Shown here: one piece after another, positions 6,403 to 59,720 of the stretch
Numbering within the stretch: position 1 is the first letter of the stretch
Layout: each line of letters opens with the position of its first letter
Virus record (IMG/VR): IMGVR_UViG_3300031741_000001
Location: 1 to 64,000 of that record
Direction: 5' to 3' (one strand)
Source of the DNA: a virus
Length of the DNA: 64,000 bases
Program-made: the position numbers and the translations under genes
The notes under the pieces: model-generated
What the model saw: only the letters and a program-made list of their open reading frames with translations
Database searches by the model: none
What the model was told of the DNA's origin: nothing

Positions 6403-6629
6403 TAATATCACTCCTTCAATTATAATTAACACTCGTGGGTTTACACGATAAGATAAATGGTTTCGTCTATAGTAATGTCTGTTTTACTATTTAAGCAGTT
6501 GTATTCGAATTGAATTTTATACAGTTCTAACTGTTCTTATAGATAATTTTATACTAGCTAGAAGCCTAGTTTGATTCGATATCATAAATGTAATGGTGAA
6601 TCTGCATTACGTTTAGAGGGGTGATATTA
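6403..6629 (-). ncRNA. Candidate structured ncRNA, copy C (two tandem H-type pseudoknots plus ACAGACA-loop hairpin)
   Basis: Minus strand ACUAG-G-CUUCUAG-CUAGU-AUAAAAUUAU-CUAUAAG (6570-6536); second ACAG-UUAGAA-CUGU-AUAAAAUUCAA-UUCGAA (6534-6504); hairpin AUAGUAA-AACAGACA-UUACUAU (6490-6469); flanking 13-nt inverted repeat 6403-6415/6617-6629. Confidence 0.55.
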
Positions 6630-6656
6630 CTATCGGTATAGATCCTACTACTTTAC

Positions 6657-6881
6657 TCATACTGCAATTCCTTTCTTTGTAAACATTTTAGAAAATTTAG
6701 TTTTAAGTTTAGAAAACTTAGTAACTACATAATCTTTAAACTCTATTGCTTTTCCAACTACTAACTCTATAGAGTCAACTATAGAACTTTTTAAAGATCT
6801 GGTTACCTTAACGCTCTTAATCTCAGCACGTTTAGATTTTCTATTGAAGGATCTAACCACCTTCTTTGATGTTATACGCAT
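6657..6881 (-). CDS. Small basic hypothetical protein
   Basis: 74 aa, K/R/S/V-rich, GGGAG SD; frame stays open about 58 codons further upstream. Confidence 0.6.
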   Translation of the reverse strand: MRITSKKVVRSFNRKSKRAEIKSVKVTRSLKSSIVDSIELVVGKAIEFKDYVVTKFSKLKTKFSKMFTKKGIAV

Positions 6882-7066
6882 AGTACTCCCTTTTCTATTA
6901 TTCTTGTTTATTTTTTCTTGTTTTAATCTTTCGCGATACTCGACGTGTTCACGCGAGTATGCTTCATGCTCTTTAGCACGCTCGTCGCGCTTCAGCTCAT
7001 CGTGAGCGAGCTCTTTTTCGTACTCTTGTTTATCCTCACCCCTTTTAATTATTACTTAAATCTTTA

Positions 7067-7089
7067 TTGATTCGCAATAATAATGTATA
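7067..7089 (-). promoter_or_regulatory. Putative early-type promoter TATACATTA-N7-GAATCAA
   Basis: Same two blocks and spacing at 16893-16915; resembles the TATATTAC-type early promoters of phiKZ. Confidence 0.5.
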
Positions 7090-7122
7090 TCTAAGAAACG
7101 AATGACCTATACTAATAGTAGA

Positions 7123-7161
7123 CTCACTATGTCTTTCCTATTACGGGAAAGACATAGTGAG
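7123..7161. terminator. Terminator-like hairpin (16 bp stem)
   Basis: CTCACTATGTCTTTCC-tattacg-GGAAAGACATAGTGAG right after the stop of 7169..8080. Confidence 0.75.
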
Positions 7162-7168
7162 GTGTTTG

Positions 7169-8080
7169 TTATTTTTTCTTTTCTCTTTGGATCAGCAATG
7201 TGTAAATATTAATAAGGTTATTCTCAAGAACCATAGCGTTAGTACACATAGTACCATATATTGAAATATACTTAGCTAGAAATTCTATAACGTCCATTAT
7301 CTTTAGAACTATTTTTTTAGATAACTCTATTTCTTCATTTTGAATAACTTCTCGCATTCCAATAAAATGAGAATCTATTTTAGAATATTCTTTTTCGATA
7401 AGATTAGCTTTCTGAATAAATTTATTATTCTCCTCTAAAAGATCTTTAGTTTGGGAAAAATCTCTCATTGATGAGAATAGAGTTCTGAAAGGTCTAGAAC
7501 TTTCACTTATCTCTAAGTCGTATAGTTTTTTAAATTTTATAAAGTCTTTTTCTAGAACTGGATCTATTTTAATAAACGATGTTTCGTTAAGAAGACTTTC
7601 AATTTTTTTTAAATCAACAGTTTCTTTTGAAAATTCTTTATATAGAGAAACTGTCAGCTTAGAAGCTATTTCTAAAATAGAAGATATCCTCATATCTATA
7701 AAGAATTTATTAATCGATCTTCCAGCATCGCTAAAATCCTTTACTAGCCCTCTAGGACAAGGAATGTCGACATCCATTACTTTGTCATAGGATAGACCGT
7801 CTATCTTGTTTATAATCGCTCTATTCGATTTAATAAAATAAGTTAAATTAGATTTGGGTATTTGAAAGTTATTCAATACTTTAGTTTGTAAAGTATTTAA
7901 AGTCTGAGAAAAACTTTTTGTTACCTTAGTATAAATAGCTACTAGGTCTAACCCTTCCTCCGATCCTCCTATATTCTCAAAAGAATATTCATTACTATTA
8001 ATTATTTTCCTCAATTCTTCAAAGACTGAAGAAGTTACCATAGCCGAATCAATCTGTGTTAAATTCATTTTTTCCTCCAT
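7169..8080 (-). CDS. Putative head-associated protein
   Basis: 303 aa, helical; N-terminal SFE/GSE/SEE motifs fit (S/A/G)-x-E prohead protease sites. Confidence 0.5.
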   Translation of the reverse strand: MEEKMNLTQIDSAMVTSSVFEELRKIINSNEYSFENIGGSEEGLDLVAIYTKVTKSFSQTLNTLQTKVLNNFQIPKSNLTYFIKSNRAIINKIDGLSYDKVMDVDIPCPRGLVKDFSDAGRSINKFFIDMRISSILEIASKLTVSLYKEFSKETVDLKKIESLLNETSFIKIDPVLEKDFIKFKKLYDLEISESSRPFRTLFSSMRDFSQTKDLLEENNKFIQKANLIEKEYSKIDSHFIGMREVIQNEEIELSKKIVLKIMDVIEFLAKYISIYGTMCTNAMVLENNLINIYTLLIQREKKK

Positions 8081-8104
8081 AATGGTTTATAGGTATATAT
8101 AATT

Positions 8105-9613
8105 TTAAATAAGTTGGATATTATTAGTAGTTGTCTTCTCCCCATAGATATCTTTAATAGAGGAATCCTTTCCGTTCCTATCATCCAGTATTCCTTTCCC
8201 TGGTATAAATTCATAAGCACAATACTTATCTTCCTCTAGAGTCTCCTCTCCTTGTCGTTGCTTATCCTGTTTCAAAGTTAAGTATTTTCTTCCTGTAAAT
8301 TTATTTATTTCAATATGTGCGAATATAAAAATATCAGCTCCTTTTCGCAATCCTTTACAGTCTGCAATATGGTAAGCGGTAAGTCTTTTAACTATATTTA
8401 TTTTACCACTAGCATATAGCTCTTCAGCAGCTGGTCCTAACTGAGCAGCTGATACTCCAAATATTGCATTATGCCTACAGAAATCAGCTACCTTATCTAA
8501 AAGATTCTCTCTTTTCTTAGCATCGTTAACTCCACCTTCTTCCAATCGCATCTTTGAGATATAGTCTAAAAAAGAAGCTACTATTTCACATCCACTACTT
8601 TGAAGTTTAACATGTAAATTTACATATTCTTGATACCCAAAGTTCTCTCCCATTCTTCTGAAAACTTGTACGTTAAAACCATTTTTATTAAACACTTCTT
8701 TTATTACATCTATTATTGCATCGTCCGAAAGCTCTGATCCGTCAGAGCTGAAATAATTCTTGTATGCTGCTCTAAACCATTGCATCATATTCTCATGAAT
8801 TTCATTCTCTAAACTAATAAAAACTATAGTCGGTATTTTACCTTCTTTAACTTTAGGGAAATTATGAGTGATGAGCCATCTTAACATGTCCATTAAAATG
8901 CCAGATTTATAATGATGAGATAGTGCCGCGAACATGATAAATTCTCCACGGAGAGGTCCTCGTTTACCGAAAAGTCTTTCGACTCCCTGTAGTCCTAAAT
9001 TCAATCTACCTTTTGTTATTTTGGTATGGTTTATTTTAAAAGCTTTTTTAATGCTTTCAATTTTAGAAAAATCTATATGTTCTATCATATCTACATTTTT
9101 AGATTCTCTATTGTCAAAGTTATCTATAATTTCTCGTGCTGAATCCACAACGCTGGTAAGGTGGATATCTTTTTTAAGTTCATTAGTGGTTTGAAAACTC
9201 TTATTACATTCTGAAAACATTTTATAAATACATTTATTAGTTTTAAATTGAAGTATCCATAGATTCAAACTCTGCTTCAACCTATCCAATTTCATATCTG
9301 TTATGTTGTTTCCAGTATTAACAATATTCATTAACTTACCGGCAAACTCGGGAGATTCCCTTGTAATAAACTCTTCTAATTTTAAAATAGTAGTTTGATA
9401 ATCGTTTTTATTTTGGGGATCTAATTCTTCATTCATTATTTCAGAAATAAGAGCAATGCATGTCCTCACCATATCGGTTTTAAGGAATTCATCTTTCTCT
9501 TTATACGTATCGTAGATGCCTATCATCGCTAAAAGAATTTTACGAATCCCTTTAGTTTTAGGATGCATCGCTAAACATAACGCATCCAGAAATATCGAAG
9601 CTCCTGTTTCCAT
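8105..9613 (-). CDS. dnaB: DnaB-like replicative helicase (phiKZ gp118-like)
   Basis: LRGEFIMFAALSHHYKSG (variant Walker A), FISLEN, FLDYI, SAAQL, ADIFIF and KQR motifs; lies near the MCP gene as in phiKZ. Confidence 0.85.
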   Translation of the reverse strand: METGASIFLDALCLAMHPKTKGIRKILLAMIGIYDTYKEKDEFLKTDMVRTCIALISEIMNEELDPQNKNDYQTTILKLEEFITRESPEFAGKLMNIVNTGNNITDMKLDRLKQSLNLWILQFKTNKCIYKMFSECNKSFQTTNELKKDIHLTSVVDSAREIIDNFDNRESKNVDMIEHIDFSKIESIKKAFKINHTKITKGRLNLGLQGVERLFGKRGPLRGEFIMFAALSHHYKSGILMDMLRWLITHNFPKVKEGKIPTIVFISLENEIHENMMQWFRAAYKNYFSSDGSELSDDAIIDVIKEVFNKNGFNVQVFRRMGENFGYQEYVNLHVKLQSSGCEIVASFLDYISKMRLEEGGVNDAKKRENLLDKVADFCRHNAIFGVSAAQLGPAAEELYASGKINIVKRLTAYHIADCKGLRKGADIFIFAHIEINKFTGRKYLTLKQDKQRQGEETLEEDKYCAYEFIPGKGILDDRNGKDSSIKDIYGEKTTTNNIQLI

Positions 9614-9670
9614 TGTTTCTCCAAATTTTAAGTTTTATACCTATATGATATAGTGGGTTTTGGTTTTTTT

Positions 9671-9686
9671 AAACTATTCTATATAA
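9671..9686 (+). promoter_or_regulatory. Putative late promoter (AAACTATTCTATATAA)
   Basis: Identical to the motif at 50605-50620 on the minus strand. Confidence 0.55.
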
Positions 9687-9708
9687 GGTAACAAACGAAA
9701 GGTATTTT

Positions 9709-11166
9709 ATGGATTCTATAATACAAACAGCTATGTTAGTGAATACAAGTACCAACCTTAAAAAAGGTTGGTCTGAACCTAACGTCAATCAAGAATATAT
9801 GAGACTAGATCCTTTAGGTAGAGCTACTCATCTATTAAGACAAAGTTTTTTAATTAAATACTGTTCCATAATTTATGGAAAGTACCTACCTCCACTAATA
9901 GAGAATTATAAAAAAGCTTTAGCTAACACTATTCAAATTGAAATAAGAAACTGTAGAAGTAAAGACATTAAAGTTAAATTTGGATTGCAGACCGCTTCTA
10001 CCTTCATCCGGTTAGAAGATTTTATTAAATTTAATAGTAAGAATATACTCTCATATTTTGATGATAATTCCCCAGCTAATATGAAAAGTAATATTCCCAA
10101 TATCGGCGAATCGCCATTTATTGAAATGTGTCTTAACTTTTGGAACAACAATCTCGCTCTATCTCAAAGAAAATTTGAAGATATCGAAACTCCTCTTATC
10201 TCAGGAGTTAAAATTCCTAAAATAGACATAACTAAAAATTGCATTTTACTTAATACTGAAGATACGAACTATCATTTTATTGGGTATGTTTACTCTCCAG
10301 AATTAATCAATACGATATACATGAATTCTCCTATTGATAATAATGATACTCTATGTTCTTTATCTGCTTCTTTGGATTGGAATGGTAAGTCGTTTTCTAA
10401 TCTTTTAGGATTCTTTGCTAGGAATGTTTTGACTATGGATGTTTTCTCTCCATTGAAAATAAACACTACTCAAAAAAATAAATTAATCCAATATAGAAAC
10501 CTAATCAACGCCAGCTGTTTCTATGTTCTCTTTAACGATATGTATAAGTCTCTTATTAATCCTACTATCTTTATTAAAAGAAATGATCCTAAGATAATGG
10601 ATGGATTCTTAAAGACAATAGAACTTTTAAAAACTACTTATAATTTAGAAATGGATGATTTAGGGGCTCTTAATAAATTAGCTTCCGCATCTAGCGAGTT
10701 TGGCGATTTCCTTTTTAATAAAGATAATAATAATCATGTTAAATCTGCTGACGGTGGAACTTACCCAACTATCCTCGATGGGTTAGAAGGATTAGAATCT
10801 GAAGACGAGACTGGTTCCATAGAGGAACCTGCAGACGATATGGAAGAAGATGCTCCTGAACCGGTAGTTGAAGCAGATCCAGTAGCTCCTAAAGAGGCTA
10901 CTTCTTTTAGAAGTAAACTTAAAAATGATAAATCTAAAAAGATTAAAATAGAATTAGAAAAAGAAGTTACGTTAGACGTTATTCTCCTTAGAGATGAATT
11001 TTATGAATTCATCACTCAGATTCTAAAGAATCCTGAAGATAAGGTAGACTCTTTAGAATTAAGAGCTCTCAAGAAAATCAGAGATTACTGGTTAAATGTT
11101 CTAAGCATTAAAACTATCTACGATATCATTTCTAGTGTTGTCTCGTGCCCTATTGTTATAAAGTAA
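9709..11166 (+). CDS. Putative head protein upstream of MCP
   Basis: 485 aa with an acidic linker containing GLE-GLE and SIE protease-type sites; sits between helicase and MCP. Confidence 0.55.
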   Translation: MDSIIQTAMLVNTSTNLKKGWSEPNVNQEYMRLDPLGRATHLLRQSFLIKYCSIIYGKYLPPLIENYKKALANTIQIEIRNCRSKDIKVKFGLQTASTFIRLEDFIKFNSKNILSYFDDNSPANMKSNIPNIGESPFIEMCLNFWNNNLALSQRKFEDIETPLISGVKIPKIDITKNCILLNTEDTNYHFIGYVYSPELINTIYMNSPIDNNDTLCSLSASLDWNGKSFSNLLGFFARNVLTMDVFSPLKINTTQKNKLIQYRNLINASCFYVLFNDMYKSLINPTIFIKRNDPKIMDGFLKTIELLKTTYNLEMDDLGALNKLASASSEFGDFLFNKDNNNHVKSADGGTYPTILDGLEGLESEDETGSIEEPADDMEEDAPEPVVEADPVAPKEATSFRSKLKNDKSKKIKIELEKEVTLDVILLRDEFYEFITQILKNPEDKVDSLELRALKKIRDYWLNVLSIKTIYDIISSVVSCPIVIK

Positions 11167-11221
11167 TAAACATAATATATAAGTATAAGTAAACCTAAAA
11201 AAGAAATATAAGGAGAAGAAG

Positions 11222-13369
11222 ATGAAACAAACATCATCGATTGACTTTTTTCTAGAAAAAGTCAGAGAAAACATGCACCCACAGACAGATGGTCCCATAG
11301 CTGACTTAGCTCTAGAGGCAGCTCGGATTGAATCTAAAGTAGATGAGTTCTTAAGTTCTAATGGTTTTGGAATGCACCGCGAAATCGGTGGGCATATGAT
11401 GACTATCGCAACAGAATCTCTATCCTCAGAAATGTTAGTATATGATGAAATAGAAGAATTTGTAAAAAATGTTAAGGGTATTCATCCTGACCATGTAGCA
11501 TCAGCTACCGGACTTGTCGGAATCATTCTTAATAGAAATGCTAAATTCAAAAATAACTACGGCGCCGGACAGAATCTTAAAATCAACCGCACAGATCTTA
11601 AACAAGATCTAGTTGGATTAGAATCTCTATATCCAAGTTATTTAATGAGCGATCCTACTTGCAATCTAAGTAATGCATCTACTGAATCATTCGGTGTTGA
11701 TATTGATATGGCTCTTCCTGATCTTAAAGTTTCTATAACTATCGCGTTGATGAGATTCCATACTTCTATCTTAGATAGACTTATGCCTACTATCCCAACA
11801 AATCAACCGTATGCTCAGTATGTTAAGAAAAAAGAATTTGTTGTCGATACTACTACAAGCAAACAGGTTAAAATACTAGACCTATATGTCAATCCTGAAA
11901 TTATTGATAATGTTCTTAAACCTATTATTCCACTTTTAAAGAATGAACCTAGTCTTTTAGTTGCTGATAATATTATTAAACCTAATATTGAAATAAACAT
12001 TATTAAAGCATCAGTTGACGCTAACAAACCAGGTTATGGTAAAGTTAACTCTACTGACAAAATCGCTGATGGTGTTAAACTTCAAACTGTTTATGTTAGT
12101 TTAACTACATCTAAAGCTACTGAAACTTTCGCACTTGACGTTCCTGGTGATCTCGGTAGACTATCAATGTCTCCAAATACAATGGGTAGTAGTAACTCAG
12201 GTACTCGTGTTGGTAATATTGATTTTAAAACATTCCTTACTAAAGGTCAAGAAACTACAAAAGGGACTGTTTCTACAATCCTAGGTGTTTGTCAACCTAA
12301 TGAAGGTATTGCTATATCTACTAGCGCTAGACCTACAGTTAACGTTATCAGTTGTGTTGCTGAATGTTTATTCAATATCTCAGTAGCTGCTCATACTCAA
12401 GTTATTGGACAAGCTCCAAGTACAGCTCTCGACGCATTAGTGGTAGTATTAGAAGCAGCCAATGCTAGTACTGTTTATGGATATGCCCTAGATGCAAGAT
12501 TCAGAGAAGACAACTTTAGAAAATCGAATAAGCTTGCTAGGATGGAACAACAGCCTTTAGCTTACGAGATCCCAACCGCTCCAAACATTTTCTACGACCA
12601 GGCTATTAGTCAGACTAATCCTGAAACTAATACTAATAACTTAGCTAAGCTTGTTAGTATCGGTAAAGACTATCGTGGTATTAATATTATTAAAGGAACA
12701 CTAGCATCAGTATACGCCTCTAGATTAGCTGCTGGTGGAAACCCTCTTTATAATTACGATATCGGTGCTAATTACGTTAGTGGTGACATGGTAAAACCAT
12801 ATGTATGGCAGGACACCTTCGACGCTAATCCTACAAAGATGATGCAAGACTCTGATCACTCAGGTGATGTTAAACAGCATTTCGTTACTTATATAACTTA
12901 TGCTATCGATCAGATCCATAGTAAATCTTTATATTGTCAACAGCTTCCACAAGGCGCTGTTCCTACATATAGACTACTTACTACTAATCCTATCCTTGGT
13001 GGTATTATTGGTCAGCCTCATTATCATACAGCTCTTGATAACGGTGTATGGGGAAATGCAGCTGGAGTTGAATATACTCTCGTTCTCCCTAATGGTGTTA
13101 GACTTGAATGTATTACTACAACATTCGATATTATGGAAAACCAGATGCTAATCATTCCTATGGTTGCTGGAGAACCTACTAGTGAACTTAACTTTGCTCA
13201 TAACTGGAACTATGGAACAGTTGTTGGACAATATGTTCAAGGTAGTGGCGGAGTTCTGAAAAGAATGTTCTTAAACTCTCGTGAAATTCCTATTCCTATT
13301 AATCCAATAGGTGCTTTAATAACAGTTAGTAATTTAGCAGCTGCTTCATTCGTAACTGAACCTAAATAA
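11222..13369 (+). CDS. Major capsid protein (phiKZ gp120-like)
   Basis: 715 aa; N-terminal propeptide with ATE/GLE/STE sites (ASTE|SFG); strong T/A third-position codon bias; own promoter-like motif and terminator; synteny with helicase. Confidence 0.8.
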   Translation: MKQTSSIDFFLEKVRENMHPQTDGPIADLALEAARIESKVDEFLSSNGFGMHREIGGHMMTIATESLSSEMLVYDEIEEFVKNVKGIHPDHVASATGLVGIILNRNAKFKNNYGAGQNLKINRTDLKQDLVGLESLYPSYLMSDPTCNLSNASTESFGVDIDMALPDLKVSITIALMRFHTSILDRLMPTIPTNQPYAQYVKKKEFVVDTTTSKQVKILDLYVNPEIIDNVLKPIIPLLKNEPSLLVADNIIKPNIEINIIKASVDANKPGYGKVNSTDKIADGVKLQTVYVSLTTSKATETFALDVPGDLGRLSMSPNTMGSSNSGTRVGNIDFKTFLTKGQETTKGTVSTILGVCQPNEGIAISTSARPTVNVISCVAECLFNISVAAHTQVIGQAPSTALDALVVVLEAANASTVYGYALDARFREDNFRKSNKLARMEQQPLAYEIPTAPNIFYDQAISQTNPETNTNNLAKLVSIGKDYRGINIIKGTLASVYASRLAAGGNPLYNYDIGANYVSGDMVKPYVWQDTFDANPTKMMQDSDHSGDVKQHFVTYITYAIDQIHSKSLYCQQLPQGAVPTYRLLTTNPILGGIIGQPHYHTALDNGVWGNAAGVEYTLVLPNGVRLECITTTFDIMENQMLIIPMVAGEPTSELNFAHNWNYGTVVGQYVQGSGGVLKRMFLNSREIPIPINPIGALITVSNLAAASFVTEPK

Positions 13370-13378
13370 AATAATACC

Positions 13379-13412
13379 CTATACTCTTATCCTCGTTAGG
13401 ATAAGAGTATAG
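13379..13412. terminator. Terminator between convergent genes (15 bp stem)
   Basis: CTATACTCTTATCCT-cgtt-AGGATAAGAGTATAG followed by a T-tract. Confidence 0.85.
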
Positions 13413-13421
13413 TTCTTTTTT

Positions 13422-15047
13422 TTAAACCATTTCTAAGATCTCATCGTAGCTAGGTAGATTAAAAAACTCGTTACATATTCTAACAGCTGAAATATCATAC
13501 GTCGGAAGGAAAATAAAAAGTTCTTCTATTTTTCTATCGTGATTGTTTTCAAAGTATAAAGCTGTATAGATTTTAGTCTCTTTTGCGATATTGAAAGCAT
13601 CGGTGATGGATGGGTAATCACTAACAACGTCTACATCGATAGTAAACTTAATTAACTTAGTTGGCGCATCTAACTCTTCTATAATAGGTATCCCTATATC
13701 ATCCATCAGATACGGAGATAGTACATTCCCTCCAGTGTTCTTTATAAACTCATCTTCTATCTTCAACTGACTACCTGAAGTAGTAGCTATTACTGCTTTA
13801 TTCTCGGTACAGTAAGAATAGAAGTCATCTTTCAACTGAATAGTCTGTTTATTAAAATTCTCTAATAAACTAGTTGAGGATAACCCTATAGCCGATTCTA
13901 CATCATGGGTTACCATATTCATTAATAATATTATTAATGTATCAAAAATATTATAAACTGTATATTCTATAAAATATTCACTTAACATCTCATAGTGAGT
14001 TCTATCATTATCAAAATCTATCTTCCCAACTCCTAATATTTTCTTAGACACATACTGAAGAGTATAAGATGGTAGAATGCCTTTAGCTTTTCTTAACAGG
14101 CTATGTAGTCTCATACTATCAATAAATTGAGTCTTTCCACTTATTCTGCAATAGTCCCAAGAATACGACCAATGTTCTTTCTTATTAACTCTACCTTTAT
14201 CATATTTATAAAATCTATATTTCTTAGGTATTTCATCTGAACAAAAAATATCAGCAATGTCTCCGCCTCTAAAAACTATACGATCAGCTAAAGTTGGAAT
14301 ATCATATCCCATGTTCCAAATAGAAATATAGTCTGGAGCTTTCTCGTGTATCCTTTTAAATATCCACTTAATAAGTTCCAACTCATCATCTGAGAAAAAG
14401 AAAGTAATCTTAGGATTTAATGTATCGAAGATAGTTTTTACTTTATCTTTTAATTTCTTTCTATATTTAATTTTCTCTTCTTTAAGTTTTATTAAAATAT
14501 CTTCTTCTGTCCCTCCTTTTAAAAGACTTTTAAGAGCTGCTGTGAATGTCTCACCATCCCCGTTCGTAAACGAAATTAAATTAACTATTTTAGTATCAGT
14601 AACGTCTTGCTCTATATCTAAAGTTCCAATATTGAATTTTAAGGCAACCTTTTCTTTAGAGTTTAATTTCTGTTTTAAAAGTACCCTAGGATCGATATCC
14701 GCACCGTATACAGAGACATCGTTGAAAAGATCAGCTCTTGATACATATTTCCTGCTAGGGATATCTAATGCTTCTTTAAGGATTGGTATAAGCTCATGTT
14801 GGTTAGCAGAATATTTATCTACTCTACTCAATAACTCATAATCCTTTTTTCTATTATGTTGTTTAAAGCAATCTTGCGTTAAATAAAAAGGTCTTTCTAC
14901 AGGATCTATTATCTTAAGCGTTGTTTCGTTGGTGTGGATATTCTTAAGAGAAGCTATTATAGAGTAATGATCTTTCTCCGAAATACCAACAGCATGAACA
15001 TATCTATAATCGTCATAGTTCATTTTTGAATTTTTATCTTTTTCCAT
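13422..15047 (-). CDS. Family-B DNA polymerase, exonuclease plus motif A half (split polymerase)
   Basis: ExoI TLDIE, ExoII WNMGYDIP, ExoIII YNIFD, motif A DVDVVSDYPS; ORF ends without motifs B/C. Confidence 0.85.
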   Translation of the reverse strand: MEKDKNSKMNYDDYRYVHAVGISEKDHYSIIASLKNIHTNETTLKIIDPVERPFYLTQDCFKQHNRKKDYELLSRVDKYSANQHELIPILKEALDIPSRKYVSRADLFNDVSVYGADIDPRVLLKQKLNSKEKVALKFNIGTLDIEQDVTDTKIVNLISFTNGDGETFTAALKSLLKGGTEEDILIKLKEEKIKYRKKLKDKVKTIFDTLNPKITFFFSDDELELIKWIFKRIHEKAPDYISIWNMGYDIPTLADRIVFRGGDIADIFCSDEIPKKYRFYKYDKGRVNKKEHWSYSWDYCRISGKTQFIDSMRLHSLLRKAKGILPSYTLQYVSKKILGVGKIDFDNDRTHYEMLSEYFIEYTVYNIFDTLIILLMNMVTHDVESAIGLSSTSLLENFNKQTIQLKDDFYSYCTENKAVIATTSGSQLKIEDEFIKNTGGNVLSPYLMDDIGIPIIEELDAPTKLIKFTIDVDVVSDYPSITDAFNIAKETKIYTALYFENNHDRKIEELFIFLPTYDISAVRICNEFFNLPSYDEILEMV

Positions 15048-15059
15048 ACATCTCCCTTT

Positions 15060-15266
15060 TTATAAAATATTAGGATATATTATTTTTAGAAAATATCCTA
15101 TACACACTAGCGCTAATGTTGAAATAAATAAAACAGTACAGCATACAAGCACCCACAAGAAAATAAAATCGGTTCTCTCATCAGTATCCATATCCCTAAA
15201 CTTTTTACAGATCGGTTTTTTCTTTTTCTTCTCAAAATATTCATATTTCATTTTTCTTTTTTTCAT
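15060..15266 (-). CDS. Small membrane protein
   Basis: 68 aa, basic N-terminus and one long hydrophobic helix; AGGAG SD. Confidence 0.65.
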   Translation of the reverse strand: MKKRKMKYEYFEKKKKKPICKKFRDMDTDERTDFIFLWVLVCCTVLFISTLALVCIGYFLKIIYPNIL

Positions 15267-15336
15267 AACTCTCCTTTCATATACTATAGTGATTTTATAT
15301 TAAAAAATACATTAAAAAAAAATATATAAGAATACT

Positions 15337-15363
15337 TCTACTGATCTCTATTAGATCAGTAGA
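15337..15363. terminator. Hairpin (11 bp stem)
   Basis: TCTACTGATCT-ctatt-AGATCAGTAGA with an A-tract on the left. Confidence 0.55.
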
Positions 15364-15489
15364 TGATGTGTTTATAAGGAATTAACTTTGTTTTTAAAAA
15401 AAAAGAAAAAAAGTTTAGAAAGCTACGGTGTTGTATAGGACGGTATAAACAGAGGAACAAACATTGATGGTTTATATACTATGTATGTT

Positions 15490-15509
15490 AACAGTTATTA
15501 ATAACTGTT
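15490..15509. promoter_or_regulatory. Perfect 20 bp palindrome, possible operator
   Basis: AACAGTTATTAATAACTGTT about 40 bp upstream of the nuclease start. Confidence 0.35.
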
Positions 15510-15551
15510 TAATAAAATAATATAACTAATATAAATGAAAAAGGATAATTT

Positions 15552-16283
15552 ATGGATAATATTATAACAGAGCATAATGGCATACAAATATTCTTCAATG
15601 AAGAACTACATAAATACTTTAATGACGATTGTGATAATTTCACTTCAGCAACTAGACTTTTAAAAAAATACTTCCCTTTCGATACTGATGGGTTAAGTAA
15701 AAAACAAGCTAAGAAATTAGGAGTTACGCAAGAGAGTATTCTAGCCAAATGGGACCTACTTAAACAAGAAGGTTGCGATCTTGGAAATAACATCCATAAC
15801 TACCTTGAGAATTATCTTAGTGGGAAACCATTACCTTCTCCTATCAGTGAGAGAGCTGCTATTAGTTTTAAGACATGTAAGCAGCTGTGTGATAAAGTTT
15901 TAACTGATTATGATATAATAGCTCTTGAGAAAATAATATTCTCTCAACTCTTGGGGGTAGCTGGCACTATAGATTTAATATGTCGACATAAGAAAACAAA
16001 GGTATTGAAGATAGTAGACTGGAAGACCAATAAAAAAATAGTAACAGCCAATTACTTTAAGTCTTTTGGATTATATCCAGTAGATCATATCCCGAATATT
16101 AATTTCTTTAAATATAGTTTACAGACAACTTTCTATAAATATCTACTTCTGCTAGAAGAGTATTATGATGAGGAAATTGAAACTTTTATTTTCCATATTC
16201 GAGAAGATAAAACCAAAGTTTATAGAACAGAGTATTATGAAAACGAAATCAAAAAAATGATAAAAGGTTTAAAGACTGATTAA
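15552..16283 (+). CDS. PD-(D/E)XK superfamily exonuclease (RecB/Cas4-like fold)
   Basis: GNNIHNYLE, GVAGTIDL, IVDWKT and YSLQ...Y motifs. Confidence 0.85.
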   Translation: MDNIITEHNGIQIFFNEELHKYFNDDCDNFTSATRLLKKYFPFDTDGLSKKQAKKLGVTQESILAKWDLLKQEGCDLGNNIHNYLENYLSGKPLPSPISERAAISFKTCKQLCDKVLTDYDIIALEKIIFSQLLGVAGTIDLICRHKKTKVLKIVDWKTNKKIVTANYFKSFGLYPVDHIPNINFFKYSLQTTFYKYLLLLEEYYDEEIETFIFHIREDKTKVYRTEYYENEIKKMIKGLKTD

Positions 16284-16306
16284 ATTAAAAAAAAAAATAA
16301 TATCGT

Positions 16307-16345
16307 TCCCCAATCATTATCGACTACTGCGATAATGATTGGGGA
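16307..16345. terminator. Terminator hairpin (16 bp stem)
   Basis: TCCCCAATCATTATCG-actactg-CGATAATGATTGGGGA, preceded by an A-tract. Confidence 0.8.
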
Positions 16346-16380: not shown

Positions 16381-16558
16381 GTGAAGAATTGACTAATTTA
16401 TTAAGTATGAGATAGCGGTATCGAGGTATCTTCTAACAAGTGGCTGTGCTTGTATTATAGAAAGGAATAGAGGTTCGGTTCATTAGGAGCTTTATACTAG
16501 CTAACGATCTAGTAATTTTCAATTAATAATATAAATCAATCAATTCTATATTATTCAC
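16381..16558 (-). ncRNA. Candidate structured ncRNA, copy A (pseudoknot plus ACAGCCA-loop hairpin)
   Basis: Minus strand ACUAG-A-UCGUUAG-CUAGU-AUAAAGCUC-CUAAUGA (16513-16480); hairpin ACAAG-CACAGCCA-CUUGU (16453-16436); AUACCUC tail; nested flanking inverted repeats (16385-16392/16540-16547, 16398-16404/16523-16529). Confidence 0.6.
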
Positions 16559-16608
16559 TTTATTCATATTGCCAGTAAATCATCCTTGCGGAAGGGCAGT
16601 GTAGCTAT

Positions 16609-18845: not shown

Positions 18846-19006
18846 GATGTGACTTTCTCTAATTTGTAGCTAAAATTATATGGGCTAGTTCGTCTATACT
18901 AATAATATATATTTAAAAAATTATTGAGATTTCTTAGTAGTTATTTTAAAGGTATTTTGTCTATATTATAGTATGATTGTATTAATTAAAACGTATTGGA
19001 GAGAAA

Positions 19007-28309: not shown

Positions 28310-28385
28310 TGTAGTTATGTTATTTTAAACCTTCTTCTAATAATATAATATATTTCTATTTTTCGTTTGAGAAAAAAAAAGAAAA

Positions 28386-28411: not shown

Positions 28412-28623
28412 AGATAGATCTGACATAAGAACAGGGTAACTCTTATATGAAATAACTTAAACTGATAAGTATCCCAACTTTCCTATTTTGCGAATATAGT
28501 TTCACACCTAGTATATGTTGCACATTGTTATCCACGTTAATATGAAATAACACGTTTCTACTTTTTATGTATATAGTAAAAACGCTACGTGATGGTGGTC
28601 AGTCCAGACCTAAAATTTAAAGG

Positions 28624-50567: not shown

Positions 50568-50604
50568 TTTGCCTCATTTCTATTGTTTTAATTTAGGTTT
50601 CTCT

Positions 50605-50620
50605 TTATATAGAATAGTTT
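50605..50620 (-). promoter_or_regulatory. Putative late promoter (AAACTATTCTATATAA)
   Basis: Identical to 9671-9686. Confidence 0.55.
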
Positions 50621-50719
50621 ATTAGAATCTCTCTTAAGGTTAATAGTAGCTTATTAATCTCACCATATTATATATAGAAAACCATTTAAGTTAATATCAC
50701 ATTATCTAAGGAGGATAAA

Positions 50720-52852: not shown

Positions 52853-52872
52853 AATAGATAAGAGAGGAAATT

Positions 52873-53724
52873 ATGTCAGGAACAAATAACAATTTTATTT
52901 CGAATGCTTCTATTTTTGGTGGCGGTGCCGGGATTACCGTAGCCAATATGGAAGTGGGAGCTCAGTTAGGGGTTGGGATACAACCTAAGAATTTAGATGC
53001 TGCTACTCCACTTCTTTTTACACCCACAGTGATCGTTGTAATGCAACTACCGACAATGTATAACGATGCTAAGTATTTACCTTTAACTAAAATGATTAAA
53101 GCTTTATTGGAAGGTTGCGCCAAGTCAGTCACCGGTATAGATTTTGAGTATACTCTTGAAACTCTAGATCAACCTGCCGGTAATGATGGTCAGAACCTTA
53201 AAATTCCATCAAAGACTAAAAGATCTGAAGTTACTCCTACTTTCACTATCCCTGAAGTGACAGGTAATTTAGTGTGGAACATTTTCACGCAATGGACTAA
53301 CGATGCTCAGAATGCTGATACTAACGCTTCTATGGCAACTATTGATAAACCTGGAACGTTTACCATGTCAGCCTACTCGATGAGTATGATGGCTATCCAA
53401 TTCGATCCTACAATGATTCCTGAGAATATAGTAGCATCTGCTTACTATACTGGAATGTTCCCAACAAGTCCAGGTGGAACACTCGGGTTAGAAAGACAAA
53501 TTGCAACTCCAAAAGTGATGGATAGGGATGTTGTATTTAGCGGATTAGTAATGCATAATCAATATATTCACAAATTGGGTATTCAAATAGCAAAGATTCT
53601 TCAATTAAGAAAAGCTGTTTATCTCAATGAAAGAACTGGAGTTACTAGTATTAACTCAGCAATAGCGAATGCTGGACTTGTTGAACAAGTTAAAGCAGTC
53701 ATCGCTAATCAAGGAACGACCTAA
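52873..53724 (+). CDS. Tail tube protein (phiKZ gp30-like)
   Basis: 283 aa directly after the sheath; PTFTIPE..GN, IQFDPT and GMFP motifs. Confidence 0.8.
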   Translation: MSGTNNNFISNASIFGGGAGITVANMEVGAQLGVGIQPKNLDAATPLLFTPTVIVVMQLPTMYNDAKYLPLTKMIKALLEGCAKSVTGIDFEYTLETLDQPAGNDGQNLKIPSKTKRSEVTPTFTIPEVTGNLVWNIFTQWTNDAQNADTNASMATIDKPGTFTMSAYSMSMMAIQFDPTMIPENIVASAYYTGMFPTSPGGTLGLERQIATPKVMDRDVVFSGLVMHNQYIHKLGIQIAKILQLRKAVYLNERTGVTSINSAIANAGLVEQVKAVIANQGTT

Positions 53725-53731
53725 AAAAAAT

Positions 53732-53770
53732 AACTCAACTTCTCTCGTTCTGAACGAGAGAAGTTGAGTT
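53732..53770. terminator. Bidirectional terminator (19 bp inverted repeat)
   Basis: AACTCAACTTCTCTCGTTC-t-GAACGAGAGAAGTTGAGTT between the convergent tube and portal genes. Confidence 0.85.
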
Positions 53771-53791
53771 TTAGCTTTTACTATTCTACTA

Positions 53792-56182: not shown

Positions 56183-56194
56183 GATAATCTCCTT

Positions 56195-56235
56195 TTATAT
56201 AGAATGGTTTGCTAAAGATTGAACATTTTATATAA
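56195..56235. promoter_or_regulatory. Divergent pair of late-type promoters
   Basis: AAACCATTCTATATAA (minus, 56195-56210) and AACATTTTATATAA (plus, 56222-56235). Confidence 0.5.
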
Positions 56236-56262
56236 TAAATATTTTTAACCGAAGGAAAAATA

Positions 56263-58575
56263 ATGATTACTTTTAATAATATTTTTTGTGAAAACATTAC
56301 ATATTTCCTTAAGACTCTATGTATCAAGAATGATTACTTCGCATCTATAATCAAACAAGAGTACATGTTAAGTAACCAGCTCGATAGTCTTGCCGATATT
56401 AACAATCCGTACTACCTTAATATATGTGGGGAATACGCTCCAGGACAATCCATGATTAAAGTAACTTCAATAGAAACTGGAGAGGTTATAGATTTCACTA
56501 AATCTAATCTAAATAGAGATGCTAAGACCAAATTTACATATAGTGTTAATAATCCAAAATTTGATGAGCTTTTAAATAGATATCCAGGGCAAGAGCATTT
56601 AATATTATCTATAAGATATCCAGCAATAGAAACTCAACTATTACCATATACCAAAGATACAACTATTTTAATGGAAAAACTTATAGCTAGAGAAAACTAT
56701 TCCATTTTAACTTACGATTCCTCATTGTTTTTTAACAATGAGGAATTTTCAATGGTTGAACGTTTAACTCAAACTATGAAACTTATTAGAGATCGATACG
56801 ACATCCCTTCGTTCACTTACGAATTCTACTACCCCCATTTGATGTGGATAAATATATGGAGTTGTTTGTTTTTAAGCTTCGTAACTCAGAGAGTTTGTAA
56901 TTTAAGAACATCTAAAACTATACCTTCTCAGATTTGGGAATTTTTAACGTCTAAAGGGCTATCCAATTATCGTAATGTTTTAACAGAAAAACAAAGTTTA
57001 TTCTTATATAGAAATATAGAATATCTTCTAAAGAATAAAGGCAAGCAGGGAAATCTTTCATATCTTTATGATAAACTACTAAACGAGAGTGGGGTTGCGT
57101 TATGTTCTATAGTTGTAATGCAAAATTCTAAAGGGAGTGCTGAAGATTGCGTACCAACACCTGAAGCTATCCAAGAAATATATAATACATATTCATTTCC
57201 ATCTAATAATTTAGGTCGTGGCGTAGATACTATTGGAGAAATAATAGAAGAGGAATATAAGGTTGGATTAGAACCTATTAATTCCGCTAGCGTGATAGCT
57301 TCTCAAACCGCTTCGTTTAGTAAAAAACCTCAAACCGCAACAATGACAAACCTTATCGATATACAAGGTAGTTTCACTAAAGATTACTATCTTAATTTAA
57401 AATTAAGATTTATTTTGGATACTACACTATCTCTAATATCCGAAAGTGTAATAAAATACAACATAGAGGTGCAAGCGCCTGATAGCGACATTAAGGTTCT
57501 ATTAACTACTGGAGATGCCGTAGCTTTAATGTATTACTGCGCTATGATACAAAACCCTCAGATAGTTCTTTTCACTACAGAAAATATCCAATCTTACATT
57601 GGAGTTAGTTTTGATTGCGACGGTGAGACTATGACTCTAACTGTTGATAATAAGGGAAAATACCTAGGGAAATATGTCGGTATATTAGAACCGATACAGA
57701 TACCTACAAGCACTTATGTCAACTACGCGTTTAAAGAAAATCTAACAGTTTCTATGATCCCCACAACGTTTAGTTTTAGAAACATAACATATGAAATGTC
57801 TAAGTTTTTAGATGCTCAAACGGTAGTTGATTATTTTAAAAACACTAAAAAGAGTTTCTCTACCCCTACTGAATTTACGGACTACCTAAACGCTTCACTT
57901 GTAAACCTAATTAAATATTATGGTGAAATGTATTCGACAATGGATAGAGTTAGGAATAGAGCGTTTTACATAGCTCTACATAGTCTTCTAAACCCTAGGG
58001 ATATAAAATTTGAACTAGTCAATAGGTTCACAACTTATAAGGCTTGGTTCACTGCATATCCAGATCTAGGTAGGATAATTTCTGGATTTAAAACTAGAGC
58101 TAATCCTGCTGAATTATACTCAGCTTTCTCCATTAAGATTCTAGAAACTTTTTTAACAAATTCCACATCCAATACTCTAGAATTCTCAACAAAAAAATAT
58201 GGAAAGATTAAAGAACTACTTATTCAACTATGTAGTTATACTATTGGATTCATTAGTAGTAAAAGTAAGAGTACCGAAAGATTTATCTTCAAAAATAAAA
58301 AAATGTTAACATTAACTAAAAGTATTCATAAATCTCCATTTTTTATTCACCTACCATTATGGAACTTTTCATCTGGGAGTAGGAGTGATGGTAAGGTAGA
58401 GATAAATAATCTAATATCTTTTAACCCTGATCGCACAACTTCGCAATTCAATTCAACTCTAGTAATAAATTTAGATAGAAAGATAGAGATAGGTTCCGAT
58501 AACGCGTCAGTAACATACATACCCAAACAAAATAAAATAAAATATAAAGGGAAATTCTATGTCAACAATATTTGA
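56263..58575 (+). CDS. Virion structural protein (phiKZ gp128-like, probable baseplate wedge)
   Basis: YYLNICGEY, YPGQE.LI and LT.KQSLFLYRNI.YL..NKGK motifs; divergent from the portal gene. Confidence 0.65.
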   Translation: MITFNNIFCENITYFLKTLCIKNDYFASIIKQEYMLSNQLDSLADINNPYYLNICGEYAPGQSMIKVTSIETGEVIDFTKSNLNRDAKTKFTYSVNNPKFDELLNRYPGQEHLILSIRYPAIETQLLPYTKDTTILMEKLIARENYSILTYDSSLFFNNEEFSMVERLTQTMKLIRDRYDIPSFTYEFYYPHLMWINIWSCLFLSFVTQRVCNLRTSKTIPSQIWEFLTSKGLSNYRNVLTEKQSLFLYRNIEYLLKNKGKQGNLSYLYDKLLNESGVALCSIVVMQNSKGSAEDCVPTPEAIQEIYNTYSFPSNNLGRGVDTIGEIIEEEYKVGLEPINSASVIASQTASFSKKPQTATMTNLIDIQGSFTKDYYLNLKLRFILDTTLSLISESVIKYNIEVQAPDSDIKVLLTTGDAVALMYYCAMIQNPQIVLFTTENIQSYIGVSFDCDGETMTLTVDNKGKYLGKYVGILEPIQIPTSTYVNYAFKENLTVSMIPTTFSFRNITYEMSKFLDAQTVVDYFKNTKKSFSTPTEFTDYLNASLVNLIKYYGEMYSTMDRVRNRAFYIALHSLLNPRDIKFELVNRFTTYKAWFTAYPDLGRIISGFKTRANPAELYSAFSIKILETFLTNSTSNTLEFSTKKYGKIKELLIQLCSYTIGFISSKSKSTERFIFKNKKMLTLTKSIHKSPFFIHLPLWNFSSGSRSDGKVEINNLISFNPDRTTSQFNSTLVINLDRKIEIGSDNASVTYIPKQNKIKYKGKFYVNNI

Positions 58576-59389
58576 ATCAGAATATTCAGTAACGACCATA
58601 ATTGGATTATTGAACGAATTTGAAAGCATGACCGCTCTACAACAAACCGTATTATCCAAGTGTACTATTAACGCTCAACATAATGTAATACCTACAGTTA
58701 TGCCAACTAAGACTCCGCAACTATTCTACTTTGGAATAGGGATTAATGGATATTATAATGTTAATCAAGATACTCCACCGTTATCGCAGCCTTATATGCC
58801 AGCAGCTACGGATATGGATTTATATCAACCAATACCTTTTAGAATAGTTCCGATAACTGCTGATCTCTCTCCAACCGAAAGAGCTCAATATAGAATGAGA
58901 ACTATGCAGACATTTAACGGAACGCAATACTTTTGTTACTGGCTTAAATTAATTAATTTCACAACAAAAGAAGTTGAGGTGATGCAAGTTAACCCTACTG
59001 GAGGAGAAACCCCGTACGTTTTCAATCCTAAAAATCTGAAGCCTATACCAAAAAAAAGTAGTACTGGTCAAATAGTCAATGCTTCTGGCGATACCGTGAT
59101 AGTAAGTTTATCAGGGACATGTCCTATTCTGGGTAGCGAGATAGTCGAAGTTATAAATATAATGTATGGGGATCTTCGCTTTGCTAATATAAGCGAATTA
59201 GGATTCTATACTGGTCAGGATGTAACCGCTCAAGGACCCGATGGAAAAGGTGGAGAAATTTCATATACTGAAAGTGCTTATACCCAACTTTCAAGTAAAT
59301 TATGCAGTCTCCCTATTCCACTATCTAAAAGCTCTAAAACTTATATTGAGACAATAGAGTATGTGAATAGTAACGTCATTAATGTTTAA
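58559..59389 (+). CDS. Virion structural protein (phiKZ gp127-like)
   Basis: YFGIGING, LYQPIPFR...DLS..ERAQYRMR and ISELG motifs. Confidence 0.65.
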   Translation: MSTIFESEYSVTTIIGLLNEFESMTALQQTVLSKCTINAQHNVIPTVMPTKTPQLFYFGIGINGYYNVNQDTPPLSQPYMPAATDMDLYQPIPFRIVPITADLSPTERAQYRMRTMQTFNGTQYFCYWLKLINFTTKEVEVMQVNPTGGETPYVFNPKNLKPIPKKSSTGQIVNASGDTVIVSLSGTCPILGSEIVEVINIMYGDLRFANISELGFYTGQDVTAQGPDGKGGEISYTESAYTQLSSKLCSLPIPLSKSSKTYIETIEYVNSNVINV

Positions 59390-59595
59390 TAACTTCAGAT
59401 AGCGTTTAAATGGCATTTAAGACACCATCAAGCGTAATTGTTATGAATGACTCATAATCATTACCATGAAGACATATCTTCAATGAGGTGTGCCAAAACG
59501 ATTAGTTGAATATTAAAAATATCGGATGCTTAAAGTTTCCATTTAAAGTCAGGCGAACTATAAGCGAGGTTTATGCTTTTAATGCATTTTAGAAT

Positions 59596-59633
59596 ACTAT
59601 CTATAGGCATCTGAAAAGATGCCTATAGATAGT
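59596..59633. terminator. Terminator-like hairpin (17 bp stem, GAAA loop)
   Basis: ACTATCTATAGGCATCT-gaaa-AGATGCCTATAGATAGT between convergent genes. Confidence 0.75.
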
Positions 59634-59635
59634 TT

Positions 59636-59720
59636 GAGGTATTCCAGTAAGTGGCTGTTCTTACTATAGTGGTTGTCTGGTTGTTTGCATAGGAAGCTTT
59701 ATACTAGCCTATGCTCTAGT
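59636..59720 (-). ncRNA. Candidate structured ncRNA, copy B (pseudoknot plus ACAGCCA-loop hairpin)
   Basis: Minus strand ACUAG-A-GCAUAGG-CUAGU-AUAAAGCUU-CCUAUGC (59720-59687); AGUAAG-AACAGCCA-CUUACU (59665-59646); AUACCUC. Confidence 0.6.

What the first reader, a model, noticed from the sequence alone, without database searches (positions are those of the whole stretch)
6403..59720. Three-locus family of pseudoknotted non-coding RNA elements with covariation
Seen in sequence: three dispersed intergenic regions (6469-6570, 16423-16513, 59636-59720) share the same two modules on the minus strand. Module 1 is an H-type pseudoknot: invariant 5-bp S1 ACUAG/CUAGU, a single purine in L1, a 7-nt S2 whose sequence changes while pairing is kept (UCGUUAG/CUAAUGA with one G-U, GCAUAGG/CCUAUGC, CUUCUAG/CUAUAAG 6 of 7), and a 9-10 nt L3 starting AUAAA. 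Module 2 is a hairpin with a variable stem (ACAAG/CUUGU, AGUAAG/CUUACU, AUAGUAA/UUACUAU) and a conserved 8-nt loop (A/C)ACAG(C/A)CA. Each copy lies between a stop codon and a long terminator-like hairpin. Established: the 5 bp/1 nt/7 bp geometry is that of the T2/T4 gene 32 mRNA pseudoknot, and type III toxin-antitoxin antitoxins (ToxI) are small pseudoknots that phage phiTE mimics. Inference: this is an undescribed phage RNA family, for example an antitoxin mimic or protein decoy, a nuclease-resistant 3' element, or an RNA localisation tag. The one-nucleotide loop is sterically sensible only on the minus strand.
Basis: partly seen in the sequence, partly recalled or inferred. Interest (0 to 1): 0.88.

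Follow-up and report, generated by a model that had tools for sequence, protein, structure and literature searches.

The report
Repeated pseudoknot RNA at operon ends
An uncultured marine giant phage carries four copies of a small knotted RNA motif just before the transcription stop signals of four gene clusters; the fold is well supported by matching mutations, but it was found in no other genome and its job is unknown.

Summary
The motif ACUAG-R-N7-CUAGU-AUAAA(4-5 nt)-N7' lies on the minus strand at all three stated places. A fourth copy lies beyond the window, at contig 74094-74128. Stem 2 is paired in 27 of 28 cells, and 6 of its 7 pairs change on both sides. None of 96 unrelated matches to the same sequence motif elsewhere pairs 7/7. 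Stem 1 never varies, so it rests on complementarity and geometry only. The second module, a hairpin with loop MACAGMCA, is present in three of the four copies and also covaries. The four copies occupy exactly the four convergent intergenic regions longer than 200 nt, each upstream of a strong hairpin.

Rfam gives no match. A covariance model finds no homolog in 14 related jumbo-phage records. Exact-motif scans of IMG/VR, JGI metagenomes and GTDB genomes give only chance hits. This scan's own index shows no look-alike on other DNA. No expression data could be obtained.

Best reading: a genome-specific, modular RNA element in long 3' tails of phage operons. Stem 2 acts as scaffold, and stem 1 plus the AUAAA loop form an invariant surface that a partner reads. 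The antitoxin-mimic, gene-32 and riboswitch readings are not supported. Interest is moderate.

The parts
6536..6570 (-). Copy A pseudoknot core: ACUAG-G-CUUCUAG-CUAGU-AUAAAAUUAU-CUAUAAG (S2 6/7)
6521..6535 (-). Copy A second small hairpin ACAGU-UAGA-ACUGU followed by AUAAAAUU. It is shared at 97% identity over 62 nt with copy D (contig 74068-74129).
6469..6490 (-). Copy A module 2: 7-bp stem, loop AACAGACA
6319..6359 (-). Copy A terminator: 17-bp hairpin with a U-rich tail on the minus strand
16563..16594 (-). Upstream 32-nt block (CUUCCGCAAGGAUGAUUUA...) just after the stop codon. It is shared at 94% with copy D (contig 74138-74169).
16480..16513 (-). Copy B pseudoknot core: ACUAG-A-UCGUUAG-CUAGU-AUAAAGCUC-CUAAUGA (S2 7/7, one G-U)
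16436..16453 (-). Copy B module 2: 5-bp stem, loop CACAGCCA
16286..16345 (-). Copy B terminal 16-bp hairpin, followed 10 nt later by a run of 11 U on the minus strand
59687..59720 (-). Copy C pseudoknot core: ACUAG-A-GCAUAGG-CUAGU-AUAAAGCUU-CCUAUGC (S2 7/7). It starts 9 nt after the UAA of the 675-aa gene.
59645..59666 (-). Copy C module 2: 7-bp stem, loop AACAGCCA
59596..59633 (.). Copy C 17-bp hairpin between the convergent genes (a likely two-way terminator with a weak U tail)

Best explanation
The element is a transcribed, minus-strand, modular RNA element. It sits in unusually long 3' untranslated tails (about 135-340 nt) of four phage operons, between the last stop codon and the terminator hairpin.

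Its core is a compact H-type pseudoknot of the CPK-1 class: a 5-bp S1, a one-purine L1, a 7-bp S2 stacked directly on S1, and a 9-10-nt loop across the S1 minor groove.

Shown: S2 is free to change sequence as long as it pairs, so it acts as scaffold. S1, L1 (always a purine) and the first five loop bases (AUAAA) never change.

Inferred: the S1/AUAAA face is a sequence-specific surface read by a partner, most likely a phage or host protein (a nuclease or an RNA-binding protein). The element then acts in cis on the fate of the transcript's 3' end. It could set stability or a processing point, possibly releasing a 3'-tail-derived small RNA that carries the conserved module-2 loop.

The isolated helices are weak (-1.7 to -7.1 kcal/mol), which fits a fold that needs tertiary contacts or a bound partner.
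For: - There are four exact copies of the sequence core, all on one strand.
- S2 is 96% paired, with 6 of 7 pairs changed on both sides. The chance background is 0 of 96 at 7/7.
- The module-2 stem covaries.
- The two G-U pairs (B, D) would be C-A on the plus strand.
- A 1-nt loop can span the deep groove of a 7-bp S2 only in the minus-strand order. This follows from the CPK-1 definition in PMC3835772 and established pseudoknot stereochemistry.
- The copies occupy exactly the four convergent intergenic regions longer than 200 nt. The three short ones (52, 67 and 102 nt) lack the element.
- The hairpins of A and B have U tails on the minus strand only, so minus-strand transcripts should run through the element.
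- No conserved reading frame crosses the core.
- CTAGTATAAA does not occur upstream of any gene.
- Repeated sequence motifs at transcript ends are known in chimalliviruses (PMC11512511).
Against: - There are no transcription data.
- There is no homolog outside this contig. All covariation therefore comes from paralogs: about three independent S2 variants, since A and D are 97% alike.
- S1 has no covariation.
- Nested folding gives unremarkable z-scores, and the helix energies are small.
- No binding partner is identified.
- Module 2 is missing from copy D.
Confidence: 0.42

Rival explanations
1. The copies are stand-alone small RNA genes. Each has its own promoter just upstream of ACUAG, so the pseudoknot caps the 5' end of a 135-250-nt RNA that ends at the hairpin. 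The conserved module-2 loop would be the interaction loop for a target RNA or protein.
For: - AT-rich -10-like boxes lie 6-13 nt upstream of ACUAG in all four copies.
- Copy B has a good match (TATATTATTA, 16535-16522) to the phage's repeated promoter-like motif TAGAAATATATTATTA.
- Intergenic small RNAs are known in chimalliviruses (PMC11512511).
Against: - Only B matches the phage promoter motif.
- In a 32% GC genome, -10-like boxes are expected by chance; the promoter scans are at or below shuffle level.
- No terminator separates the upstream gene from the element, so read-through from the operon is expected anyway.
- No complementary target sites stand out in the contig.
Confidence: 0.2
2. 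It is a DNA-level signal. CTAGTATAAA would be a promoter -10-like box, and ACTAG-N8-CTAGT a palindromic operator for a dimeric DNA-binding protein. Alternatively it is a recombination or roadblock site at convergent junctions.
For: - CTAGTATAAA resembles the core of the phage's own promoter-like motifs (ATATTATATAA, TCTATATAAA).
- The simple scan calls -35/-10 pairs that use this box in B and D.
- ACTAG/CTAGT is an inverted repeat made of the palindrome CTAG.
Against: - A protein site does not explain why the 7-mer inside the 'spacer' always finds its complement 9-10 nt beyond the box while its sequence changes.
- The box never precedes a protein gene, and one-mismatch variants are at control level.
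- The G-U pairs are strand-specific.
- The module-2 stems downstream also covary.
Confidence: 0.1
3. It is a selfish or recombining mosaic repeat, like REP/BIME or BOX elements. The modules spread or are exchanged between intergenic regions, and the fold serves their spread or is tolerated, with no dedicated role for the phage.
For: - The make-up is mosaic. A and D share 62 nt at 97% with unrelated flanks. B and D share a different 32-nt block at 94%. A, B and C share module 2.
- AGGATGATTT occurs three times in the contig, all in these regions.
- All copies sit at 'safe' convergent gene ends.
Against: - There are only four copies.
- All four are in one orientation relative to the upstream gene.
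- The core is strictly invariant beside a freely covarying S2, which argues for selection on function.
- No transposase-like gene was noted, though the contig was not fully annotated.
Confidence: 0.12
4. It is a ligand-sensing, riboswitch-like pseudoknot (preQ1-I-like architecture) that tunes read-through of the terminator into antisense transcription of the convergent genes.
For: - It is a small H-type pseudoknot with an A-rich loop after a 5-bp P1, followed by a terminator. This resembles preQ1-I aptamers (from my own knowledge of that class).
Against: - No Rfam riboswitch model matches even at E<=10.
- No gene lies downstream on the same strand.
- The terminator lies 20-130 nt away and has no conserved alternative pairing with the core.
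- The conserved and variable parts are the reverse of preQ1-I, where P1 varies.
Confidence: 0.04
5. It is an antitoxin mimic or decoy (pseudo-ToxI type) against a host abortive-infection nuclease.
For: - It is a small pseudoknot with an AAA-containing loop.
Against: - The copies are not tandem.
- No ToxN-like gene is in the contig (control silent).
- The motif is absent from 185,579 species genomes at the exact-pattern level, so no host template is known.
Confidence: 0.03

Closest known systems
CPK-1 class of compact H-type pseudoknots (founding member: the T2/T4 gene 32 mRNA autoregulatory pseudoknot; PMC3835772)
   Same: S2 is 7 bp, L1 is 1 nt, no nucleotide lies between the stems, and an A-rich loop crosses S1. 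As proposed for the class, S2 and L1 act as scaffold, and specificity sits in S1 and the minor-groove loop.
   Different: The gene 32 pseudoknot is a single copy in the 5' leader of the SSB gene and nucleates gp32 binding. Here there are four copies in 3' tails, with no gene downstream and no gp32 gene found in the contig (control silent). CPK-1 is a structural class, not a homologous family.
Conserved terminator-associated sequence motifs of chimalliviruses (motifs A-E of 201phi2-1 and the phiKZ terminator motif; PMC11512511)
   Same: They are repeated, sequence-conserved motifs at the 3' ends of transcription units in phiKZ-like jumbo phages.
   Different: Those motifs are tens of copies of hairpin-forming terminator sequences at mapped transcript ends. 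Here the terminator hairpins all differ in sequence. The conserved part is a pseudoknot 20-130 nt upstream, present in only 4 copies.
Interspersed mosaic intergenic repeats (REP/BIME of enterobacteria, BOX of pneumococcus)
   Same: They are modular, shuffled blocks that fold as RNA, lie after stop codons and often between convergent genes, and can stabilise upstream mRNA.
   Different: Those are bacterial, high in copy number and simple hairpins. This element is in a phage, has four copies and has a pseudoknot core with an invariant face.
preQ1-I riboswitch aptamer and pistol ribozyme (small P1-plus-pseudoknot RNAs, often phage-associated)
   Same: A 5-bp hairpin whose loop pairs with a downstream strand after an A-rich linker.
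   Different: No Rfam match. There is no downstream gene (preQ1-I). There is no P2/P3 pair flanking the pseudoknot strand (pistol architecture in PMC4604425).
Type III antitoxin RNAs (ToxI)
   Same: Small protein-bound pseudoknots.
   Different: ToxI is a tandem array next to toxN. These copies are dispersed, not tandem, and no toxN is present.

Membership tests
CPK-1 structural class of pseudoknots | S2 of 6-7 base pairs | tested here: met
   7 positions, 27 of 28 cells paired; definition from PMC3835772
CPK-1 structural class of pseudoknots | L1 of 1-2 nucleotides | tested here: met
   A single purine in all four copies
CPK-1 structural class of pseudoknots | No nucleotide between S1 and S2, so the stems can stack | tested here: met
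   The S2 5' strand abuts the S1 3' strand in all copies. Actual stacking is not testable here.
T4/T2 gene 32 autoregulatory pseudoknot | Lies in the 5' leader of the SSB (gp32) gene, followed by an unstructured AU-rich run to the ribosome-binding site | tested here: not met
   All copies follow a stop codon and precede a terminator and a convergent gene. No PF08804 hit in the contig (control silent, contig 31% complete).
Type III antitoxin (ToxI-like) | Tandem direct repeats of about 34-45 nt | tested here: not met
   No tandem array at any copy. The copies are 10-43 kb apart.
Type III antitoxin (ToxI-like) | Adjacent ToxN-family endoribonuclease gene | tested here: inconclusive
   No PF13958 hit in the contig, but the control genomes did not ring either
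preQ1-I riboswitch (RF00522) | Match to the Rfam covariance model, and a position upstream of a regulated gene | tested here: not met
   No riboswitch hit at E<=10 in the four loci. No downstream gene on the same strand.
Pistol ribozyme (RF02679) | [quoted passage not shown] | tested here: not met
   No Rfam hit. The 9-10-nt linker leaves no P2 strand with a conserved 3' partner (architecture from PMC4604425).
Chimallivirus terminator-associated motifs | Conserved motif at experimentally mapped transcript 3' ends | not testable with these tools
   No RNA data for this uncultured phage

The most novel reading that the evidence does not exclude
The invariant S1/AUAAA face of the pseudoknot is a sequence-specific tag on a defined subset of early (replication and recombination) transcripts of a nucleus-forming-type jumbo phage. 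A dedicated phage protein would read it to sort, export, protect or time the decay of those mRNAs. Alternatively, it soaks up a host RNA-targeting defence protein. Either would be a new class of phage RNA signal with no counterpart in Rfam.
Probability: 0.1. Interest if true: 0.85.

Novelty: new variant of a known kind. Interest (0 to 1): 0.42.

Why it matters
If the element is functional, it would be a rare case of a multi-copy, sequence-specific pseudoknot signal in the 3' tails of phage operons. Almost nothing is known about how jumbo phages of the phiKZ type control the fate of their transcripts after synthesis.

The clean split between a freely covarying scaffold stem and an invariant stem-plus-loop face gives a ready design for mutants and pull-downs.

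Its weight is limited because it is documented in one uncultured marine phage only, without expression data.

Tried and rejected
- Rfam at gathering level and at E<=10 on the four loci: only miRNA-type noise.
- tRNA/tmRNA scan: none.
- Megablast against the phage collection: no near relative. tblastn gives only about 26-32% identical phiKZ-like phages.
- Close-relative searches with the helicase and the 700-aa gene at 30858-32960 (taken to be the large terminase; not checked by a family search here) in IMG/VR: none.
- Exact-motif scan of IMG/VR: 113 stretches, none with S2 pairing at the right offset.
- Exact-motif scan of JGI metagenomes: 17 stretches, none with S2 pairing.
- Exact-motif scan of GTDB genomes: 10 stretches, none with S2 pairing.
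- Covariance model R2 on 14 related jumbo-phage records (2.6 Mb): best E = 1.8. On inspection this is a 5' leader, not a homolog.
- A generic pseudoknot descriptor is too permissive (117 hits in the contig). It found nothing convincing in 15 related loci.
- De novo search for shared intergenic words in the closest record G001: only its own, different motifs and plain terminators.
The 157-kb contig of the same phage and the 60% and 48% relatives (P0002, P0003) therefore could not be read.
- Sequencing runs: no RNA holder listed.
- Coding reading rejected: the shared 'LASIK' peptide is just the translated core, and copy C has stops in that frame.
- Recoding signal rejected: copy C is 9 nt past a double UAA, with no slippery site. 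The other copies are 59-96 nt past their stops.
- Small-RNA seed targets in the contig: none at ribosome-binding sites.
- The PDB sequence search of the two genes upstream of copy C gave nothing.

Full report
**What the window is.** The window is the first 64 kb of an 81,827-base IMG/VR virus record. CheckV estimates the record as 31% complete, and its G+C is 32%. Two marine metagenome runs hold the stretch.

Its proteins place it among distant relatives of phiKZ-like jumbo phages:
- a divergent DnaB-like helicase, a RuvC-like resolvase, a PD-(D/E)XK exonuclease and DUF7208;
- a UvsX-like recombinase and a DNA polymerase;
- the best tblastn hits are phiKZ-type phages of Erwinia, Klebsiella and Pseudomonas at about 26-32% identity.

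No close relative is present in the phage collection or in IMG/VR.

**The observation.** The layout is ACUAG, one purine, a 7-mer, CUAGU, a loop of 9-10 nt beginning AUAAA, and then the complement of the 7-mer.

The pattern ACTAG-N8-CTAGTATAAA has three exact matches in the window. Shuffles give 0.52 matches on average even when two mismatches are allowed. Searching the whole contig gave a fourth exact copy at 74128-74094, also on the minus strand.

I built a covariance model from copies B and C. I used it to align A and D with the gap in the loop, where it belongs, and then rebuilt the model. On that alignment:
- S2 is paired in 27 of 28 cells;
- six of its seven pairs change on both sides;
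- sliding the 3' partner by 1-3 columns drops pairing to 15-48%.

As an outside control I took all other matches to the same sequence pattern in IMG/VR and JGI contigs. Of 96 distinct cases, none has 7/7 pairs at the same offset and six have 6/7. This genome shows 7, 7, 7 and 6.

Copies A and D are 97% identical over 62 nt. Their only two differences both fall in S2 strands. In D they repair A's single C-U mismatch to A-U and turn a U-A pair into U-G. About three S2 variants are therefore independent.

S1 never varies. It is supported only by its perfect complementarity, its exact abutment to S2 and the geometry.

Module 2, a hairpin with loop MACAGMCA, occurs only next to copies A, B and C in the whole contig. 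Its stem is 90.5% paired, with six of seven pairs changed on both sides. Copy D lacks it.

**Further anatomy.**
- A and D share a second small hairpin (ACAGU-UAGA-ACUGU) followed by a second AUAAAAUU.
- B and D share a 32-nt block just after the stop codon, containing a small CCGC/GCAA-looped hairpin and AGGAUGAUUU.
- The 10-mer AGGATGATTT occurs three times in the contig, all within these regions.
- A, B and C also share a loose GAWACC...TATCT stretch after module 2.

The elements are thus mosaics of shuffled modules around an invariant core.

**Context.** A simple gene map shows seven convergent intergenic regions. The four longer than 200 nt (342, 325, 340 and 211 nt) each hold one copy. 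The three short ones (52, 67 and 102 nt) hold none.

Each copy follows the stop codon of a minus-strand gene by 9-96 nt. A strong hairpin follows 20-130 nt further on. In A and B the U-rich tail is on the minus strand only, so these hairpins terminate minus-strand transcripts that must have crossed the element.

The upstream operons carry replication and recombination-type genes. Three of them start at a repeated promoter-like motif, TAGAAATATATTATTA.

No conserved open reading frame covers the core.

**Which strand, RNA or DNA.** Four points favour minus-strand RNA:
- Two G-U pairs (B, D) would be C-A on the plus strand.
- A one-nucleotide loop can cross the deep groove of a 7-bp S2, but the mirror-image plus-strand knot would need one nucleotide to cross the shallow groove of a 7-bp stem. 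This is established pseudoknot stereochemistry; the CPK-1 definition is in PMC3835772.
- The terminators are oriented for the minus strand.
- The module-2 stems covary on the same transcript.

A DNA reading (promoter box plus palindromic operator) deserves mention because CTAGTATAAA resembles the phage's own promoter-like cores. However, that box never precedes a gene, and its one-mismatch variants are at control level. A protein site also cannot explain sequence-free complementarity between the 'spacer' and a 7-mer beyond the box.

**Strength of the fold.** As isolated hairpins, S1 is worth -3.7 to -4.6 kcal/mol and S2 -1.7 to -7.1 kcal/mol. Nested folding of the regions is unremarkable. The knot is therefore marginal on its own. 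This fits a structure stabilised by loop-helix contacts, Mg2+ or a bound partner, but it is also a caution.

**Search for relatives and known families.**
- Rfam gives nothing at gathering thresholds or at E<=10 on the four loci. The gene 32 pseudoknot itself has no Rfam model (PMC10690425), so that membership was judged on context instead.
- Model R2 recovers the four copies at 49-52 bits and nothing else in the contig.
- R2 finds nothing in 14 related jumbo-phage records totalling 2.6 Mb. The best hit, at E = 1.8, is a ribosome-binding leader.
- Exact-pattern scans of IMG/VR, JGI metagenomes and 185,579 species genomes returned only chance matches without S2 pairing.
- The closest available record, G001, has different intergenic motifs and plain terminators.
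- This scan's own index has no look-alike on other DNA. One overlapping follow-up report exists and was withheld.

**Interpretation.** What is shown:
- a four-copy, one-strand, modular element with a covarying 7-bp helix interleaved with an invariant 5-bp complementary pair, giving a CPK-1 type pseudoknot;
- a second covarying hairpin with a conserved loop;
- a position in long 3' tails upstream of minus-oriented terminators.

What is inferred: S2 is a scaffold, and the invariant S1, the L1 purine and the AUAAA loop start form a specific recognition surface. The element would act in cis on transcript 3'-end fate (stability or processing, possibly release of a small RNA). I put this at about 0.42.

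The rivals are:
- independent small RNA genes (0.2);
- a selfish mosaic repeat (0.12);
- a DNA-level promoter or operator (0.1);
- a riboswitch-like sensor (0.04);
- an antitoxin mimic (0.03).

**Comparison with known systems.** Structurally the element meets all three defining features of the CPK-1 class, but that is a shape class, not a family.
- It is not a gene 32-type operator (wrong position, no SSB gene).
- It is not ToxI-like (not tandem).
- It is not preQ1-I or pistol (no model match, wrong architecture).

The nearest biological parallels are two. One is the conserved terminator-associated motifs mapped in 201phi2-1 and phiKZ (PMC11512511). The other is the bacterial mosaic intergenic repeats. 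It differs from both in having a pseudoknot core with an invariant face and only four copies.

**Verdict.** The 'new RNA family' reading is only partly supported, because the family is so far confined to paralogs in one uncultured genome and is unexpressed as far as the data go. The specific functional guesses are untested or disfavoured. Interest is moderate.

Noticed in passing
contig G000 74094-74128 (= L004 1489-1523), minus strand, outside the window: A fourth copy of the pseudoknot. It is 97% identical to copy A over 62 nt (contig 74068-74129), has a fully paired S2 and lacks module 2.
   Followed up: yes
window 16563-16594 and contig 74138-74169, minus strand: A 32-nt block (CUUCCGCAAGGAUGAUUUAYUGGYAAUAUGAA) is shared at 94% by copies B and D only, right after the stop codons. 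The 10-mer AGGATGATTT occurs 3 times in the contig, all in pseudoknot-bearing gaps.
   Followed up: partly
window 4438-4450, 9670-9686, 50603-50621, 56194-56210: A repeated promoter-like motif AAAC(C/T)ATTCTATATAAA lies in divergent intergenic regions, directly upstream of ribosome-binding sites.
   Followed up: partly
window 18899-18912, 28345-28363; contig 64526-64541, 70391-70407, 75193-75213, 76305-76320: A second repeated promoter-like motif, TAGAAATATATTATTA. It heads the operons that end in copies B, C and D.
   Followed up: partly
window 6352-6402, minus strand: A 16-codon mini-ORF (MYNINKIIIFIFISHL) with a strong GAAGGAG ribosome-binding site lies between copy A and its terminator. 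Its stop codon lies in the terminator stem. Copy B has a weaker 14-codon analogue that runs into its hairpin.
   Followed up: no
window 28415-28612 (minus) and 59397-59553 (plus): Two larger structured-looking 3' regions were flagged by other readers of this scan as a separate related pair. The second shares the intergenic region with copy C, on the other strand. I only read them.
   Followed up: no
window 61257-61512 (inside the 675-aa gene 59730-61757): Six tandem 42-nt repeats encode a 14-aa Arg/Asp/Asn/Tyr-rich unit, followed by RG/GF-rich low-complexity sequence. The gene ends 9 nt before copy C. It has no Pfam, PHROG or PDB match.
   Followed up: partly
module-2 loops at window 16441-16448 and 59652-59659: The loop core ACAGCCA is the antisense of UGGCUGU. 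From memory, that is part of the universally conserved 16S rRNA segment around position 1053-1059. A 7-mer match to rRNA is expected by chance about one time in three or four, and copy A's loop has a mismatch. I treat it as a lead only.
   Followed up: no
window 6201-16200: A second marine metagenome run from another study holds 97% of the sampled words of this stretch, so a near-identical phage occurs in at least two samples.
   Followed up: no
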